From: Anaeramoeba ignava BMAN
Taxonomy: Eukaryota > Protista > Anaeramoebae
Reading direction: 5' to 3'
Length of the DNA: 64,000 bases
Assembly: GCA_028826165.1 (NCBI GenBank)
Contig: JAPDFW010000129.1
Coordinates: 62,001-126,000 of the forward strand
The position numbers and the translations under genes are program-made. Below the pieces are notes generated by a model, which was not told the origin of the DNA, did not search any database, and worked only from the letters and a program-made list of their open reading frames with translations. Below, piece after piece: positions 1-47,835 of the stretch (position 1 is the first letter of the stretch; every line of letters begins with the position of its first letter).

Positions 1-2006
1 CTTTCTTTTCTATTTAAAACACAACATTTATTCACAATACTATAAAAAGGATGGTCATTTGGAAGAACAGGAAACTTATTTTCAGAAAGAAGATAATTTG
101 AAATTTGATCTGAAGTTGATCCAAAAAAAGGGAGTTTTCGAGTTCCCAAATAAAATAAGATACAACCAAGTGAATAAATATCGGAGTCTTTTGAATATTC
201 TTGATGAAGAAATACTTCTGGAGGTGAAAAATTAGGGGACATTTCAAGCAAGTATTTCTCATTATTGATAAATTGAGGAATTTCAAAATCACAAATAAAA
301 ATTTTTTCCGCATTTGATTGAATCAATATATTTGTTGGCTTGAAGTTTTTATGGCAAGTTTCAGAGGAATGAAGAGAACGTAATGAGACGGCAATTTTGG
401 AAGCGAGCTTGATTTGAATATTCTCAGGAATTTCGTGATTTTGAATGACATAATCTTGCAGACTTCCTTCGGGGAAGTTTTTCATTGTTAAAAATAAAAA
501 AGGACCTTTAAAATAATATCCTTCATAAAAAACAAGGTTATCCTTTTCAATGACTTGCATTACTGAAAATATATCTGCCAACTGATTGTGGATGTCTTGC
601 TTTTCATTGAGAAACATGAGCAATTTTTCAATCTCTATTCTTTTGACAAAATATTCTTGATTGTCAATTTTCTCTTTGAAAATAATCGAAATTGGACCGG
701 CTCCAATCTGTTGTTTGAATGCAAACAACGCGGGAGAAATCCCGAAGTATTTCGACTTAATAATGTACTTGCAGTCGTGCAACGGAGAGGGGCTGTTTTG
801 AATCAAACGCATGATATTTTGGCGTGCTTTTTGGAATCTTGTTTGGAGATTGTAGAAATTTCCAATGCAAATATAGGCGTCCACAAATTTGGGGTCTTTT
901 TTCACGATTTCGTGGAAGATTTGGAGCGCCTCAATCACTTGACTTTTCCTTTTGGAAATCAAACCCAATTGGAATCGAGCATCGATGAAATTTGGGTTGA
1001 TTTTTAAAATTTTATTGAAACATCGCGATGATTGCTCCAAACTATTCATGCGATTAAAATTCAATCCAAGAAGAAACAACCCCGGTATTGATTCCTGGTT
1101 GATTTCAAGCACCTTTGTGAGATACTTGCTTGCTTTGTCGTATTTTTCTTGATCAAAACATATTTCTGACAAGTGGTAATTGCATTCATAAACAAGTTTA
1201 TTTTGAGACAAAACAAGTTTGAAATATTTTTCTGATTCTTTGAATTGATGGATTTTTTTCAATGCAACTGCAAGATTATAATAAATTTGGAAATCAACAT
1301 CCTTTGTTTTTTCAATATATTTTTGGAACATTTTGACTGATTTTTTAAACTGTTTGTCATAAAACAAACACAATGCAAATTTCAAAAGAAGAAACGGATT
1401 TTCGTTTTCATTTTCATTTTCAATCGAAATTGAAATTGCGATTGATAAAAAACTAATTGCAAGTTGATAATTTTTTTCGCGAAAATAAATATCGCCAAGA
1501 ATATGAGAAGATATAAATCTGTGCTTTTGATTTTGCGAATTCCTCGCCACAAATTTAAATTGGGCCATTGCTTTGGTAAGATATGACTTATCCAGATGGT
1601 AATAAATAGTTCCCAAAAAATAATGTATTTCTTCACAATTTGGTTCAATTAAAAGTGCTTTCTTTAAATATTCAATTGCAATATCATATTGTTTTTTTTC
1701 TGCGAAAATCAATCCAAGATAAAAATAACTTTTATAAAATGTTTCATCAAGATTCAACAAGTTGAAAAAGTGCTGAATTGCTTTTTCATATTTCCTTTGT
1801 TTATAATAAATCACTGCAAGATGAAATAACGGATTGACAGCTTCCGTTGAATTTTTTGCAAATTTAATTGCTTTTTGAAAAAATTGAATTGCTTTTTCAT
1901 ATTTTTTTTGTTTATACAATAAAATTCCAAATGAAAGATATGATTGAATCATTAAAGTATTTTGTTCTTTTGGAATTGAATAAGGAATAATTGTTTCTTC
2001 ATTCAT
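1..2006 (-). CDS. TPR-repeat protein with C-terminal protein-kinase-like (pseudokinase) domain; 3' end runs off the window
   Basis: Not in the ORF track because there is no stop inside the window. Manual translation from ATG 2006: MNEETIIPYS...GILLYKQKKYEKAIQFFQKAI...LAVIYYKQRKYEKAIQHF (TPRs), then QIGAGPISIIFK, YFVKRI, EGSLQDY, CHKNFKPTNILI, ICDFE, FSPPEVF, DIYSLGCILF (kinase subdomains I-IX). Confidence 0.88.
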   Translation of the reverse strand, partial: MNEETIIPYSIPKEQNTLMIQSYLSFGILLYKQKKYEKAIQFFQKAIKFAKNSTEAVNPLFHLAVIYYKQRKYEKAIQHFFNLLNLDETFYKSYFYLGLIFAEKKQYDIAIEYLKKALLIEPNCEEIHYFLGTIYYHLDKSYLTKAMAQFKFVARNSQNQKHRFISSHILGDIYFREKNYQLAISFLSIAISISIENENENENPFLLLKFALCLFYDKQFKKSVKMFQKYIEKTKDVDFQIYYNLAVALKKIHQFKESEKYFKLVLSQNKLVYECNYHLSEICFDQEKYDKASKYLTKVLEINQESIPGLFLLGLNFNRMNSLEQSSRCFNKILKINPNFIDARFQLGLISKRKSQVIEALQIFHEIVKKDPKFVDAYICIGNFYNLQTRFQKARQNIMRLIQNSPSPLHDCKYIIKSKYFGISPALFAFKQQIGAGPISIIFKEKIDNQEYFVKRIEIEKLLMFLNEKQDIHNQLADIFSVMQVIEKDNLVFYEGYYFKGPFLFLTMKNFPEGSLQDYVIQNHEIPENIQIKLASKIAVSLRSLHSSETCHKNFKPTNILIQSNAEKIFICDFEIPQFINNEKYLLEMSPNFSPPEVFLHQEYSKDSDIYSLGCILFYLGTRKLPFFGSTSDQISNYLLSENKFPVLPNDHPFYSIVNKCCVLNRKE

Positions 2007-2120
2007 TTTTTAATTTTTTAAATTTAAAAAAAAAAATGAAAATTAAAAAAGGAGAAAAATTTTTTTTTCATTTTTTTTTTCTCTTTTTTAAAAAAAAAAT
2101 AATTTTATTAATTTCTAATT

Positions 2121-3705
2121 ATGGTTATTGGTTATCACGCAAGTAAAGGACTTAGTATTATTATTGCTTTTCTTTTTCCATCTTACAGATCTTATAAAGC
2201 AGTTAAAACACCTGATAAAGGAGATGATACAGAAGTATAACAAAAATTATAATTAAATTTTTTCAATTAAATTTTAATTTTTATTTTTATTTTTATTTTT
2301 ATTTTTATTTAGTGGGTTTGATTTTAAATTTTAAATTTTAATTTTTAAATTTTAATTTTAATTTTAATTTTCCTTTTTTTTAGCTTGTAAATTATTTTTA
2401 ATTCTTTATTGTTAATTTTAATTTTTAATTTTAAATTTTTTTTGATAGATTTGTAAAAAATTTTAATTAAATTTTAATTTTAATTTTAATTTTTAATTTT
2501 AATTTTTAATAATTTTTTTAGATTGGACAATAACGTAAAAAATAAATTATCAATTAAATTATAATTTTTTTAAATATTTCATTCTTATTCTTCTTCAATT
2601 ATTTTCTTTATAGTGCCTTCTTTACCTTTTTTGAATTTTTTGCTGATTATTGTTTGCAAATATTTCTTTTATTTTTTTTTATTTTAAAAATTTAAATTTT
2701 AAATTAAAAAATTTTTATTATTTTTAAAAATTAAAATAGTGGTTAATTGGATTCCTTTATATTATGAACTGTATTTAAAAATTAATTTAAAATTTAGAGA
2801 GGAAATAATTTTAATTTTTTAATTTTAATTTCTTTTACAATTTTAAAGGAAAATTTTAATTTTTGGTTTTAATTTTAAAAGGAAAATTGTTTTTTAATTT
2901 AATTTTATTTTAATTTTAATTTTAATTTTAATTTTAATTTTAATTTTAATTTTAATTTATTTAATTTTTAATTTTAATTTAATTTTAATTTTAATTTTAA
3001 TTTTAATTTTAATAATTTTTAATTAATTTTTAATTTTAATTTTAATTTTAATTTTAATTTTAATTTTTAATTTTAATTTTAATTTTAATTTTAATTTTAA
3101 TTTTAATTTTAATTTTAATTTTAATTTTAATTTTAATTTTAATTTTAATTTTAATTTTAATTTTAATTTTATTTAATTTTAATTTTAATTTTAATTTTAA
3201 TTTTTAATTTTTAATTTTAATTTTAATTTTAATTTTAATTTTAATTTTAATTTTTAATTTTAATTTTTAATTTTAATTTTAATTTTAATTTTAATTTTAA
3301 TTTTAATTTTAATTTTAATTTTAATTTTAATTTTAATTTTAATTTTAATTTATTTAATTTTAATTTTAATTTTAATTAGGGATCTCAATTACTTTGGAAA
3401 GTAAAATTTTATTAAATAATTTTATTGCAAAATAATTTTATATAAATATTTTTTTATTAAATAAAGCATGTTGTTGAACCTTTCCTTGATAAAAGATCAA
3501 AAGATATTGATCAAAAATTAGTTCAAGCAACAGAATATATTACAAAAAAAGCACTTCAAGGAAGAAAAAAAATGGAGGTTAATTTTTATATTAAATTAAT
3601 TATTAAATTAAATTAATTAAATTAAATTAATTTATTTATTTTTAGACGGTAGCTGAAGATCAAATGATTGATAGTTTTAAGAAAAATGCTGGACTTAAAG
3701 ATTAA
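2121..3705 (+). CDS. REEP/Yop1/TB2-DP1-HVA22 family ER-shaping protein, about 11 exons including micro-exons
   Basis: Exons 2121-2234, 2313-2315, 2384-2386, 2449-2452, 2522-2534, 2614-2651, 2740-2770, (2849 or 2882)-2888, 3380-3400, 3467-3577, 3646-3705, all GT-AG. They splice in frame to ...FLFPSYRSYKAVKTPDKGDDTEWLIYWTITAFFTFFEFFADYLVNWIPLYYELK...GSQLLWKHVVEPFL..., matching the family YPxYxSxKA...DDxxWLxYW...WxPxYY signature. Confidence 0.88.
2890..3378. repeat. (AATTTT)n hexamer microsatellite inside a REEP intron
   Basis: About 490 bp of A/T-only AATTTT repeats. Confidence 0.95.
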
Positions 3706-3940: not shown

Positions 3941-6541
3941 TCAACAACATTTCTTTTTTTTTTGTGGAGGTTCATTTGGAGAATCAATTTTAATTTGAGG
4001 TTCTTGTTGTCTCCAATTTTTAAGTTTAAATTTTTTTAAAATTGTAGAAGCAAGAAGAACAAAAGCATTTTCAACATTAGTAGAATTTTTTGCACTTGTT
4101 TCAAGAAAAGGAATTTCTGTTTGATTAGAAAAATTTTGTGCAATTTCTGTTTTAACCATTTTTTGATTTTCAAGATCACATTTATTTCCAACAATCATTT
4201 TTATTACTTCTGATTCTGCATTTGTTTCAACTTCATTTATCCAATGTCCAATATTTTCAAAAGATTGTGGATTAGTAACATCATAAACAATAATTACACC
4301 TTTTGCTCCTCTAAAAAAAATTAATTCAAATTAATTAAAAAAAAAAGTGGAATAAAAAATTTTTACCGATAATAACTTGATGTTATTGTTTTAAATCTTT
4401 CTTGTCCAGCAGTATCCCACTATAAAATTATTTATAAAATTATTTATAAAATTAATTTAAAAAAATTATTTATAAAATTATTTATAAAATTAATTATAAA
4501 ATTATTTATAAAATTATTTATAAAATATAAAATTATTTATAAAATTATATATAAAATTATTTATAAAATTATTTATAAAATTAATTATAAAATTAATTAT
4601 AAAATTATATATAAAATTATTTATAAAATTATTTATAAAATTATTTATAAAATTATATATAAAATTATATATAAAATTAAATATAAAATTAAATATAAAA
4701 TTAAATATAAAATTAAATATAAAATTAAATATAAAATTATTAATAAAATTATTTATAAAATTAAATTTATAAAAAAATATAAAATTAATTATATAAAATT
4801 AAATATAAAATTATTTATAAAAATTATTTATAAAATTATTTATAAAATTAAATATAAAAAATTAAAATATTAATAAAATTATTTATAAAATTATTAATAA
4901 AATTAAATATAAAATTATTTATAAAATTATATATAAAATTAAATATAAAATTATTTATAAAATTAATTATAAAATTATATATAAAATTATTTATAAAATT
5001 ATATATAAAATTGTTTATAAAATTATTTATAAAATTATTTATAAAATTAAATTTTTATAAAATTATTTATAAAATTATTTATAAAATTATATATAAAATC
5101 ATATATATAAAAATTATTTATATAAAAATTATTATAAAAAAATTTATATAAAATTATTTATAAAATTATTTATAAAATTATTTATAAAAATTAAATATAT
5201 AAAATTAAATATATAAAATTATTATATAAAATTATTAATAAAATTAAATATAAAATTATTTATAAAATTATATATAAAATTATATAAAATTATATATAAA
5301 TATAAAATTATTTATAAAATTAATTATAAAATTATATATAAAATTATTTATAAAATTAATTATAAAATTATTTTATAAAATTATAAAATTATTTATAAAA
5401 ATTATTTATAAAATTATTTATAAAAATTATTTATAAAATTATATATAAAATTAAATATAAAATTATTTATAAAATTAAATATAAAATTATTTATAAAATT
5501 ATTTATAAAATTATTTATAAAATTATTTATAAAATTATATATAAAATTATTTATAAAATTAAATATAAAATTATTTATAAAATTATATATAAAATTTATA
5601 TAAAAATTTATATAAAATTATTTATAAAATTATATATAAAATTATATATAAAATTATATATAAAAATTATTTATATATAAAATTATATATAAAATTATAT
5701 ATAAAATTATTTATAAAAATTATATATAAAATTATTTATAAAATTATATATAAAATTATTTATAAAATTAAATATAAATTAATTATAAAAATTTATAAAA
5801 ATTAAATATAAAATTATTTATAAAAAATTAATTAAATATAAAATTAAAATATTTATAAAATTAATTATAAAATTAAATATAAAATTATTTATAAATTCAT
5901 TTGTAAATTCATTTGTAAATTCATTTGTAAATTCATTTGTAAATTCATTTGTAAATTCATTTGTAAATTCATTTGTAAATTCATTTGTAAATTCATTTGT
6001 AAATTCATTTGTAAATTCATTTGTAAATTCATTTGTAAATTCATTTGTAAATTCATTTGTAAATTCATTTGTAAATTCGTTTATAAATTTGAGAATGGAA
6101 AAAAATCCAATTAAATCATTAAAAGTTAAAAAGAATTTGTTTACAATTTGAAGTTTAATTTTTTGACCATCTTTTTCTATTGTTTTAATTTTCTAATAAA
6201 AAACAAAATTAAACAAAAATAATAATAATAATAATTAATTTGAATTTTCTTACAAAATCAACTCCAATTGTTGGATTATAACTGTCTTGAAATCTATCAT
6301 CCTTTTTTTTGTTAAATTAAATAATAAAAAATTATTTAAAAAGAAAAATTTATAATAATTATTATTTTTACTGCAAATCTTAATAATAAACTACTTTTTC
6401 CAACAGCTATTTTTATTTAAAAAAATTTTTTCAATTAAAAATTTTTTTCAATTTTTTTTTATGTATTTTTAATCATTTTTTACCAATATCCCCAACTAAT
6501 AAAATTTTAAGAAGATAATCATAATCATAAGTTTGAGCCAT
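3941..6541 (-). CDS. Rab GTPase, Rab1-like, 6 exons
   Basis: Exons 6541-6484, 6406-6372, 6301-6254, 6192-6145, 4419-4367, 4310-3941 give [85 protein letters not shown]...GNKCD...ETSAK...KKKKCC (G1-G5 motifs, RabF motifs, CC prenylation tail). Confidence 0.93.
4421..6090. repeat. 12-bp tandem repeats filling the 1.7-kb Rab intron 4: degenerate TATAAAATTATT, then near-perfect TGTAAATTCATT
   Basis: Directly visible periodicity; the unit switches at about 5895. Confidence 0.95.
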
Positions 6542-45900: not shown

Positions 45901-46504
45901 GAATTTTTTTTAATTCAAAAAGAAGAGCTTAATTTGAAATGTACCTGTTTTTTTTTAGTAATTTCTTTGATTCCTTTTCGAGTTCAGAAACAGATTCATT
46001 TTGAAATTGTGTGGAAATATCTTCAAAATTTAACCGTTTTGATTTTGCAAGTGAAATTAAAGAACTAATTCCACTAAAAGTGAAACTAATTTTATTTTTT
46101 TAAAAAAGTAAAAAATAAAGAAGAAAAAAATTTTTTTTAAATAAAATTGAATAAAAAAAAAGAAAGAAAAAAAAGCAATTTTAAATTTTGAATTAATTAA
46201 GAAATTTTAATTTTAATTTTAATTTTAATTTTAATTTTAAATTTTAATTTTAATTTTAATTTTAATTTTGTTTTTAATTTTTATTTTAATTTTAATTTTA
46301 ATTTTTAATTTTGTTGTTGTTTTTGTTTTTTTAGGGTTTTTTTTTAATTGATTTTTAATTGATTTTTAATTGATTGTTAATTTTCCTTTTAAAATTGTTC
46401 CAAAGTCATTTATAAAGAGGAAATAAGAATAAGAAAGAGAAAAGGGAAAAAAAAAGAAATTAAGAAATAAAGAAAGACGTTAATTACCTTGAAAAGAAAC
46501 CCAT
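39920..46504 (-). CDS. ABCC/MRP-family full transporter (TMD1-NBD1-TMD2-NBD2), multi-exon, with degenerate nucleotide-binding motifs
   Basis: Start MGFFS|SFTFSGISSLISLAKSKRLNFEDI (lasso motif); ORF pieces 44855-45067, 43356-43913, 41016-42836, 39920-40543; NBD2 GICGPSG|SGKS spliced across an intron; GGTIRENF and RISFARALY motifs. Confidence 0.9.
42845..43360. repeat. Degenerate 12-bp (AAATAAATTTTT)n repeat in an ABCC intron
   Basis: Direct. Confidence 0.88.
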
Positions 46505-46779: not shown

Positions 46780-47835
46780 AAATGTGGAATAAAAACGGAA
46801 AAAAAATTAATTAAATTTATAATAAAATTAATTATTAAATTTATAAAGAAATTAATTATTAAATTTATAATAAAATTAATTATTAAATTTATAATAAAAT
46901 TAATTATTAAATTTATAAAGGAATTAATTATTAAATTTATAATAAAATTAATTATTAAATTTCTAATTAAAAATGTGGAATAAAAACGGAAAAATTAATT
47001 AAATTTATAAAAATTAATTATTAAATTTATAATAGAATTAGTTATTAAATTTATAATAAAATTAATTATTAAATTTATAATAAAAATTAATTATTAAATT
47101 TATAAAAGGAATTAATTATTAAATTTATAAAGGAATTAATTATTAAATTTATAATAAAATTAATTATTAAATTTATAAAGAAATTAGTTATTAAATTTAT
47201 AATAAAATTAATTATTAAATTTATAAAGGAATTAATTATTAAATTTATAATAAAATTAATTATTAAATTTATAATAAAATTAATTATTAAATTTATAATA
47301 AAATTAATTATTAAATTTATAAAGGAATTAATTATTAAATTTATAAAGGAATTAATTATTAAATTTATAAGAAATTAATTATTAAATTTATAATAAAATT
47401 AATTATTAAATTCAAATAAAAATTGGAATAAAAACGGAAAAATTGATTAAATTCATAAATAAAAATTAATTATTAAATTTATAAAGGAATTAATTATTAA
47501 ATTTATAATAAAATTAATTATTAAATTTATAATAAAATTAATTATTAAATTTATAATAAAATTAATTATTAAATTTATAATAAAATTAATTATTAAATTT
47601 ATAATAGAATTAGTTATTAAATTTATAATAAAATTAATTATTAAATTTATAAATAAAATTAATTATTAAATTTATAATAAAATTAATTATTAAATTTATA
47701 ATAAAATTAATTATTAAATTTATAAAAAAATTAATTATTAAATTTATAATAAAATTAATTATTAAATTTATAAATAAAAAATGTGGAATAAAAAATGTGG
47801 AATAAAAATTGGAAAGGAATTAATTATTAAATTGG
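46780..47835. repeat. 24-bp minisatellite (AAATTTATAATAAAATTAATTATT; variant ...AAAGGAATT...) interrupted by recurring TGTGGAATAAAAACGG-like units
   Basis: Direct; intergenic between ABCC and KAR. Confidence 0.9.

What the first reader, a model, noticed from the sequence alone, without database searches (positions are those of the whole stretch)
2235..2534. Three consecutive micro-exons of 3, 3 and 4 nt build the conserved WLxYW motif of REEP/Yop1
Seen: after exon 1 (...DDTE) the sequence offers tag-TGG-gtttga (2313-2315), tag-CTT-gtaaat (2384-2386), tag-ATTT-gtaaaa (2449-2452) and tag-ATTGGACAATAAC-gtaaaa (2522-2534), separated by ~60-80-nt AT-rich introns. Joined, they read TGG CTT ATT TAT TGG = WLIYW, the family signature, and the frame holds through the downstream exons. 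A run of single-codon exons is extreme and implies strict intron-definition or ordered splicing. Gene predictors would miss it.
Basis: partly seen in the sequence, partly recalled or inferred. Interest (0 to 1): 0.75.

Follow-up and report, generated by a model that had tools for sequence, protein, structure and literature searches.

The report
Gene split into single-codon exons
In an anaerobic amoeba, a membrane-shaping protein's gene has four tiny coding pieces of 3, 3, 4 and 13 bases in a row, each between short introns, which are likely joined one at a time by ordinary splicing; the public gene model misses them and RNA proof is still lacking.

Summary
Exons of 3, 3, 4 and 13 nt (2313-15, 2384-86, 2449-52, 2522-34) lie between GT-AG introns of 62-79 nt in a REEP/HVA22-family gene of Anaeramoeba ignava. 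Of 384 open splice paths, the one with all four scores best against a family profile (150.9 bits; annotated model 76.3). None of 1000 shuffles reached the real score. A family spacing that is 18 residues in all 26 measurable relatives is restored only with both 3-nt exons. The public model (KAJ5067348.1) skips the whole domain. Limits: no RNA read could be laid, so splicing is inferred. About 12 family residues further downstream (2771-3379) cannot be found in this assembly. The first W is common, not invariant (sister species: L). Likely mechanism: canonical intron-defined splicing, one intron at a time. Single 1-4-nt exons and adjacent pairs are published; my searches found no published constitutive 3-3-4 run. 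The scan noted similar or denser chains on other DNA (unchecked notes). Verdict: real, an extreme new variant of a known kind.

The parts
2121..2234 (+). Exon 1, 114 nt, 38 codons, ends in DDTE
   Evidence: Identical to the start of annotated protein P0001 = KAJ5067348.1
2235..2312 (+). Intron 1, 78 nt, GT-AG
2313..2315 (+). 3-nt exon (Trp39)
   Evidence: Omission costs 12.1 bits and shortens an invariant spacing; splicing inferred
2316..2383 (+). Intron 2, 68 nt, GT-AG
2384..2386 (+). 3-nt exon (Leu40)
   Evidence: Omission costs 10.6 bits and shortens an invariant spacing; splicing inferred
2387..2448 (+). Intron 3, 62 nt, GT-AG
2449..2452 (+). 4-nt exon (Ile41 plus first base of Tyr42)
   Evidence: Omission shifts the frame and gives a stop; splicing inferred
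2453..2521 (+). Intron 4, 69 nt, GT-AG
2522..2534 (+). 13-nt exon (rest of Tyr42 to Thr46)
   Evidence: Omission shifts the frame
2614..2651 (+). 38-nt exon
2740..2770 (+). 31-nt exon, ends inside the Leu codon after YYE
2771..3379 (+). Unresolved stretch: in-frame candidates 2849-2888 (40 nt) or 2882-2888 (7 nt, Leu-Lys-Ile), then a 491-nt G/C-free AATTTT tract; about 12 conserved residues not found
3380..3400 (+). 21-nt exon (GSQLLWK)
   Evidence: In P0001
3467..3577 (+). 111-nt exon
   Evidence: In P0001
3646..3705 (+). Last coding exon with stop codon
   Evidence: In P0001

Best explanation
The DNA holds four tiny AG/GT-bounded segments of 3, 3, 4 and 13 bases between short A+T-rich introns, which are predicted to be constitutive exons of a REEP/HVA22-family gene and are likely joined by the ordinary spliceosome removing one intron at a time. 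Shown: the splice signals, the open frame and the fit to the family. Inferred: each 62-79-nt intron is recognised across its own length (intron definition), pairing a GT with the nearest usable downstream AG; this is nearly unambiguous because the introns hold only 2-4 G each. Neighbouring introns cannot plausibly be engaged at once across 3-4 nt, so they would leave in turn, and each ligation would merge the micro-exon into a longer exon, so that no free tiny exon has to be recognised. The chain most likely arose by repeated intron gain into a conserved motif (weakly inferred) and has no regulatory purpose.
For: Best of 384 open GT-AG paths against a profile of 18 family members: all four exons 150.9 bits; without the Leu exon 140.3; without the Trp exon 138.8; without both 134.7; annotated single-intron form 76.3. 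0 of 1000 shuffles match. S-x-x-A to YW spacing is 18 in 26 of 29 proteins held (3 not measurable: P0001, P0002, P0025) and 18 in the model. Gapless alignment to four A. flamelloides proteins, 36-37 of 68 identical, 17-18 of 30 in residues 39-68; one of them (P0028) is a EukProt entry, transcriptome-type by its name. 9 of 10 proposed introns hold exactly one AG (partly a result of low G content, not tested against a null). Retaining any of introns 1-4 gives a stop by codon 40-46; skipping the 4- or 13-nt exon shifts the frame. Published micro-exons of 1 nt are spliced accurately and are argued to need sequential, intron-defined removal (PMC4674806; PMC8831610).
Against: No RNA read or contig supports the junctions. 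The public model joins exon 1 straight to 3380. About 12 conserved residues of the second hydrophobic segment are absent from the assembled DNA, so the gene cannot be completed as assembled. Skipping either 3-nt exon keeps the frame, so constitutive inclusion is not forced by frame. No other gene in the window showed such exons. No branch-point consensus was identified.
Confidence: 0.8

Rival explanations
1. The two 3-nt exons are real but optional cassettes, skipped in a sizeable share of transcripts (by regulation or by splicing noise), giving proteins one or two residues shorter.
For: Skipping either or both keeps the frame and gives no stop, so decay of faulty mRNA would not remove such transcripts. 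Alternative 3-nt exons are known (RPS24, PMC11162997).
Against: The spacing they build is the same in 26 of 26 measurable relatives, so shorter forms are probably not tolerated; each loss costs 10-12 bits.
Confidence: 0.1
2. The gene is broken or decaying: the second hydrophobic segment has really been lost, and the main transcript may be the annotated short form that skips the whole domain.
For: The F-x-x-W-L-x-x-P segment has no convincing match in six frames of the window. The annotated protein skips 2235-3379 in frame. A paralog exists (P0002).
Against: Residues 39-68 are as well kept as exon 1 (17-18 of 30 against 18-20 of 38 identities) and all splice signals are intact. The gap borders a 491-nt low-complexity tract in a Nanopore-based assembly, where sequence loss is plausible. 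The annotated form has no Pfam match.
Confidence: 0.07
3. The micro-exons are chance or assembly-made AG-N-GT strings, and the true motif is encoded elsewhere.
For: The neighbouring stretch 2771-2888 looks garbled, so the assembly is not flawless here.
Against: 0 of 1000 shuffles reach the score and 0 of 709 paths give the motif; intron sizes and ends are typical of the window (median 83 nt among 55 candidates); errors would not create five canonical introns in frame.
Confidence: 0.03

Closest known systems
Constitutive ultra-short exons: 1-nt exons of Arabidopsis APC11 (PMC4674806) and VPS55 (PMC8831610), Fusarium CYP621A (PMC12940212); 1-3-nt exons in 89 Coprinopsis gene models (PMC12230235)
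   Same: Tiny coding exon inside a conserved motif, canonical AG/GT ends, needed for the protein, missed by annotation.
   Different: In the passages read these are single micro-exons beside larger exons, and they have RNA support. Here three exons of 4 nt or less, then one of 13 nt, follow each other, with no RNA support yet.
Adjacent 5-nt and 12-nt micro-exons of the plant and Zygnema peptidase M1 gene (PMC8831610, PMC11096116)
   Same: Neighbouring coding micro-exons, overlooked by annotation, explained by gradual intron gain.
   Different: Two exons, not four; larger; conserved across land plants, while conservation of this chain is untested.
Human RPS24, three consecutive micro-exons of 3, 18 and 22 nt (PMC11162997)
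   Same: Three consecutive micro-exons including a 3-nt one.
   Different: Alternatively spliced at the 3' end of the gene; not a constitutive core motif.
Schistosoma micro-exon genes, MEG (PMC10526429)
   Same: Runs of very short exons.
   Different: MEG exons are mostly 15 nt (6-81) and multiples of three, introns 0.1-5 kb, products secreted and variable. Here a conserved membrane protein, short introns, and two of four exons are not multiples of three.
REEP/DP1/Yop1/HVA22 family (Pfam PF03134)
   Same: The spliced model aligns without gaps to family members over residues 1-71.
   Different: About 12 residues of the domain are missing from the assembly. The short N-terminus resembles the REEP1-4 type more than Yop1/REEP5 (alignment; no tree built).

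Membership tests
Spliceosomal micro-exon | Internal exon of 15 nt or less between AG and GT | tested here: met
Spliceosomal micro-exon | Flanked by introns of normal size and make-up for the organism | tested here: met
   62-79 nt, 89-97% A+T; published intron A+T 91.86%; window median 83 nt
Spliceosomal micro-exon | Needed for frame or conserved protein length | tested here: met
Spliceosomal micro-exon | Present in mature mRNA | tested here: inconclusive
   No RNA holder listed; the one run laid on exon 1 gave no cover
Constitutive (not alternative) micro-exon | Near-complete inclusion | not testable with these tools
   Needs junction reads; inferred only from invariant spacing
Schistosoma-type micro-exon gene (MEG) | Mostly 3n exons, long introns, secreted variable product | tested here: not met
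   4- and 13-nt exons, introns under 90 nt, conserved membrane-protein family
REEP/DP1/Yop1/HVA22 (PF03134) | Match to the TB2_DP1_HVA22 domain | tested here: met
   150.9 bits against a profile of 18 proteins that each pass the PF03134 cut-off; the spliced model itself was not scanned against Pfam
REEP/DP1/Yop1/HVA22 (PF03134) | Complete second hydrophobic segment (F-x-x-W-L-x-x-P) | tested here: inconclusive
   Not found in the assembled DNA; may be an assembly loss
REEP/DP1/Yop1/HVA22 (PF03134) | Membrane-curving activity | not testable with these tools
   Family knowledge only (abstract starts)

The most novel reading that the evidence does not exclude
A. ignava splices by near-pure 'GT to nearest AG' intron definition with no practical lower limit on exon size, so chains of single-codon exons are tolerated and hide in many of its genes. 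The one-residue scar at the same motif in the annotated paralog P0002 would be a second case, older than the gene duplication. The organism would then be a natural model for how in-frame 3-nt exons, invisible to mRNA surveillance, are kept without exon definition.
Probability: 0.3. Interest if true: 0.72.

Novelty: new variant of a known kind. Interest (0 to 1): 0.52.

Why it matters
Three successive exons of 4 nt or less push spliceosomal exon size to the limit several times in a row. Two of them can be skipped without a frameshift, so their inclusion rate measures splicing accuracy without the filter of mRNA decay, and intermediates would show the order of intron removal. PolyA RNA-seq of this organism was made for its genome paper, so the test is a remapping job. 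In practice, the public protein lacks its whole family domain, and 3 of the other 6 genome-based Anaeramoeba REEP models seen also look damaged (P0002, P0003, P0025), which warns that this proteome under-calls small exons.

Tried and rejected
RNA check: no RNA holder listed (one run of unknown kind, 0.40 of words). Laying that run on exon 1 plus the start of intron 1 gave no cover, which proves nothing; the micro-exon stretch itself was never laid. No whole genome was held, so no genome-wide survey. DNA of the paralog or of A. flamelloides genes could not be fetched: alignment query not accepted; single-protein scan of metagenome contigs found 0 relatives among 467 pattern hits. Pfam found nothing in exon 1 or the 111-nt exon alone or in P0001. 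A word-based search with P0001 found only itself. Origin of introns 1-4 by duplication of one intron: not supported, since their mutual alignment scores (19-31) are matched or exceeded by an unrelated intron of another gene (24-40), through a shared AATTTT repeat. RNA folding of 2235-2534 gave only A-U pairing, with no shuffle control, and was not used. The missing 12-residue segment was sought in six frames of the window with three relatives as queries; best ungapped scores 28-33, far from the gene, no null run. The 40-nt candidate exon 2849-2888 scores higher than the 7-nt one (150.9 against 133.8), probably by filling the gap; it lacks W and P and is one residue short of the sister-species length, so I do not accept it as settled. 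No earlier notes on this genome or on the paralog's sequence.

Full report
Source. Exon 1 (2121-2234) is identical to the start of one protein on record, P0001, named receptor expression-enhancing protein of Anaeramoeba ignava, KAJ5067348.1. The genome paper gives 80.65% A+T for this genome and 91.86% for its introns, and describes a long-read assembly polished with Racon, Nanopolish and Pilon (10.1101/2023.03.03.530753 = PMC11550330; passages and outline). [quoted passage not shown]

Observation. The four segments are at the stated places. The introns are 78, 68, 62, 69, 79 and 88 nt, all GT-AG, 89-97% A+T, and the joined exons are open to 2770. All 6 AG in 2235-2740 are used as acceptors. 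A scan of both strands of the window gave 5 micro-exon-like sites, 4 of them these (filter written after seeing the locus).

Test against the family. An exhaustive search with P0001 returned 21 proteins; 20 of 21 pass the PF03134 cut-off, P0001 itself has no match. I built a profile from 18 of them (P0004-P0021; the three named Anaeramoeba models P0001-P0003 were left out) and scored every stop-free GT-AG path from 2121 to 3577 with introns of at least 40 nt. Of 384 paths the best holds all four micro-exons (150.9 bits). Without the Leu exon it is 140.3, without the Trp exon 138.8, without both 134.7; the best path lacking the 13-nt exon is 105.5; the annotated form is 76.3. In 1000 dinucleotide shuffles of 2235-2613, 410 had an open path, the best scored 86.8 against 97.5 for the real one, none reached it, and 0 of 709 paths gave W-[LMIV]-x-Y-W. 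The distance from S-x-x-A to YW is 18 in 26 of 29 proteins held (P0001, P0002 and P0025 not measurable) and 18 in the model, so both 3-nt exons are needed for the family length. The model aligns without gaps to four A. flamelloides proteins, 36-37 of 68 identical. The first W is found in 15 of 18 profile members; 6 of 6 A. flamelloides proteins read LLIYW; YW is in 18 of 18.

What does not fit. P0001 joins exon 1 to 3380 and so lacks the domain; I read this as a prediction miss, but how the model was made was not found (the supplement with gene and intron statistics could not be read; 11 of 15 held files were searched with no relevant hit). Between 2770 and 3380 the frame needs 3n+1 bases. Candidates are 2849-2888 (40 nt) and 2882-2888 (7 nt); both begin Leu-Lys-Ile as relatives do, but neither gives F-x-x-W-L-x-x-P. 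With the 7-nt exon exactly 12 residues are missing against the sister species. They have no convincing match in the window. The stretch borders a 491-nt tract of AATTTT units, so loss in assembly is the likeliest cause, but that is inference. No RNA evidence was obtained either way.

Mechanism. Shown: 9 of the 10 proposed introns contain a single AG, and introns 1-4 hold 2-4 G each; retention of any of introns 1-4 gives a stop by codon 40-46; loss of the 4- or 13-nt exon shifts the frame; loss of either 3-nt exon does not. Inferred: exon definition cannot work across 3-4 nt, while 62-79-nt introns suit intron definition, and adjacent introns would be removed in turn. This is the argument made for the Arabidopsis 1-nt exon (PMC4674806; parts 1-2 of 3 read) and backed by read data for plant micro-exons, whose flanking introns leave consecutively, the upstream one often late (PMC8831610; passages). 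Any order works in principle, because each ligation lengthens the exon; what must be avoided is pairing a donor with the second AG downstream. Origin by repeated intron gain is a weak inference: three genome-based A. flamelloides models are whole across the motif, which may mean fewer introns there or better annotation, and recent intron gain in Anaeramoeba is discussed in PMC10710043 (passages). Duplication of one intron is not supported.

Paralog. P0002, a second A. ignava model, reads W-V-N-W, one residue short at this same motif. Asn is the expected product if a 3-nt phase-1 exon before the last two bases of the Tyr codon was missed. This is a hint only; its DNA could not be fetched. Against a genome-wide habit, no other gene in this 64-kb window showed exons under 17 nt.

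Known cases. Single exons of 1 nt: APC11 and VPS55 (PMC4674806, PMC8831610), Fusarium CYP621A (PMC12940212; part 1 of 3). Coprinopsis has 89 gene models with an exon of 3 nt or less (PMC12230235; passages). Amphidinium has exons down to 3 nt (PMC12584245; passages). Adjacent 5- and 12-nt exons occur in plants and Zygnema (PMC11096116; passages). RPS24 has three consecutive alternative micro-exons of 3, 18 and 22 nt (PMC11162997; passages). Schistosoma MEGs have runs of mostly 15-nt exons (PMC10526429; passages). I found no paper on micro-exons in Anaeramoeba or in REEP genes, and none on three consecutive exons of 4 nt or less, in searches; several lists were seen only in part (20 of 1,359, 20 of 26, 20 of 174, 40 of 271) and the library lacks most subscription journals, so this is no proof of absence. 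Earlier notes of this scan describe a denser chain (1, 1, 1, 1, 4, 4 nt) and a pair of 4-nt exons on other DNA, and a gene of 29 small exons; they are unchecked and I did not test them.

Verdict. The feature is real at the DNA level and very probably spliced as proposed (about 0.9 that the exons are used; 0.8 for constitutive use by sequential intron definition). It is an extreme variant of a known kind, with a known mechanism probably sufficient. Interest 0.52.

Noticed in passing
P0002 (KAJ5066463.1), residues 35-44: The annotated A. ignava paralog reads W-V-N-W where the family has W-x-x-Y-W: one residue short. Asn is what the first base of an Ile/Thr/Met codon joined to the last two bases of a Tyr codon would give, the same phase-1 Tyr boundary as window exon 2522.
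   Followed up: partly
window 2771-2888: Odd stretch with 5 AG and three copies of an AGGAAA-like word (near 2800, 2847, 2880), unlike the other introns of the gene; followed by a 491-nt tract with no C and 2 G. Probably where 12 codons were lost from the assembly.
   Followed up: partly
P0003 and P0025 (A. flamelloides): Two more annotated REEP models are damaged: P0003 lacks about 27 residues of the domain, P0025 lacks the normal N-terminus. P0024, P0027 and P0029 are whole across the motif.
   Followed up: no
window 3941-6541, minus strand: Rab1-like GTPase gene (label recalled from the translation, not searched) with ordinary small exons of about 35-55 nt and one low-complexity intron of about 1.7 kb.
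   Followed up: partly
window 47608-47612, plus strand: The only other site passing the micro-exon filter (5 nt), inside an A+T repeat tract with no known gene context; probably chance.
   Followed up: no
window 6635-39454: Tandem arrays of long, mostly single-ORF genes that look like BTB-TLD, ankyrin-BTB and RCC1-BTB proteins (labels recalled, not searched), several with frame breaks that may be assembly errors.
   Followed up: no
window 46488-46504, minus strand: Possible 17-nt first coding exon of an ABC-transporter-like gene (read by eye).
   Followed up: no
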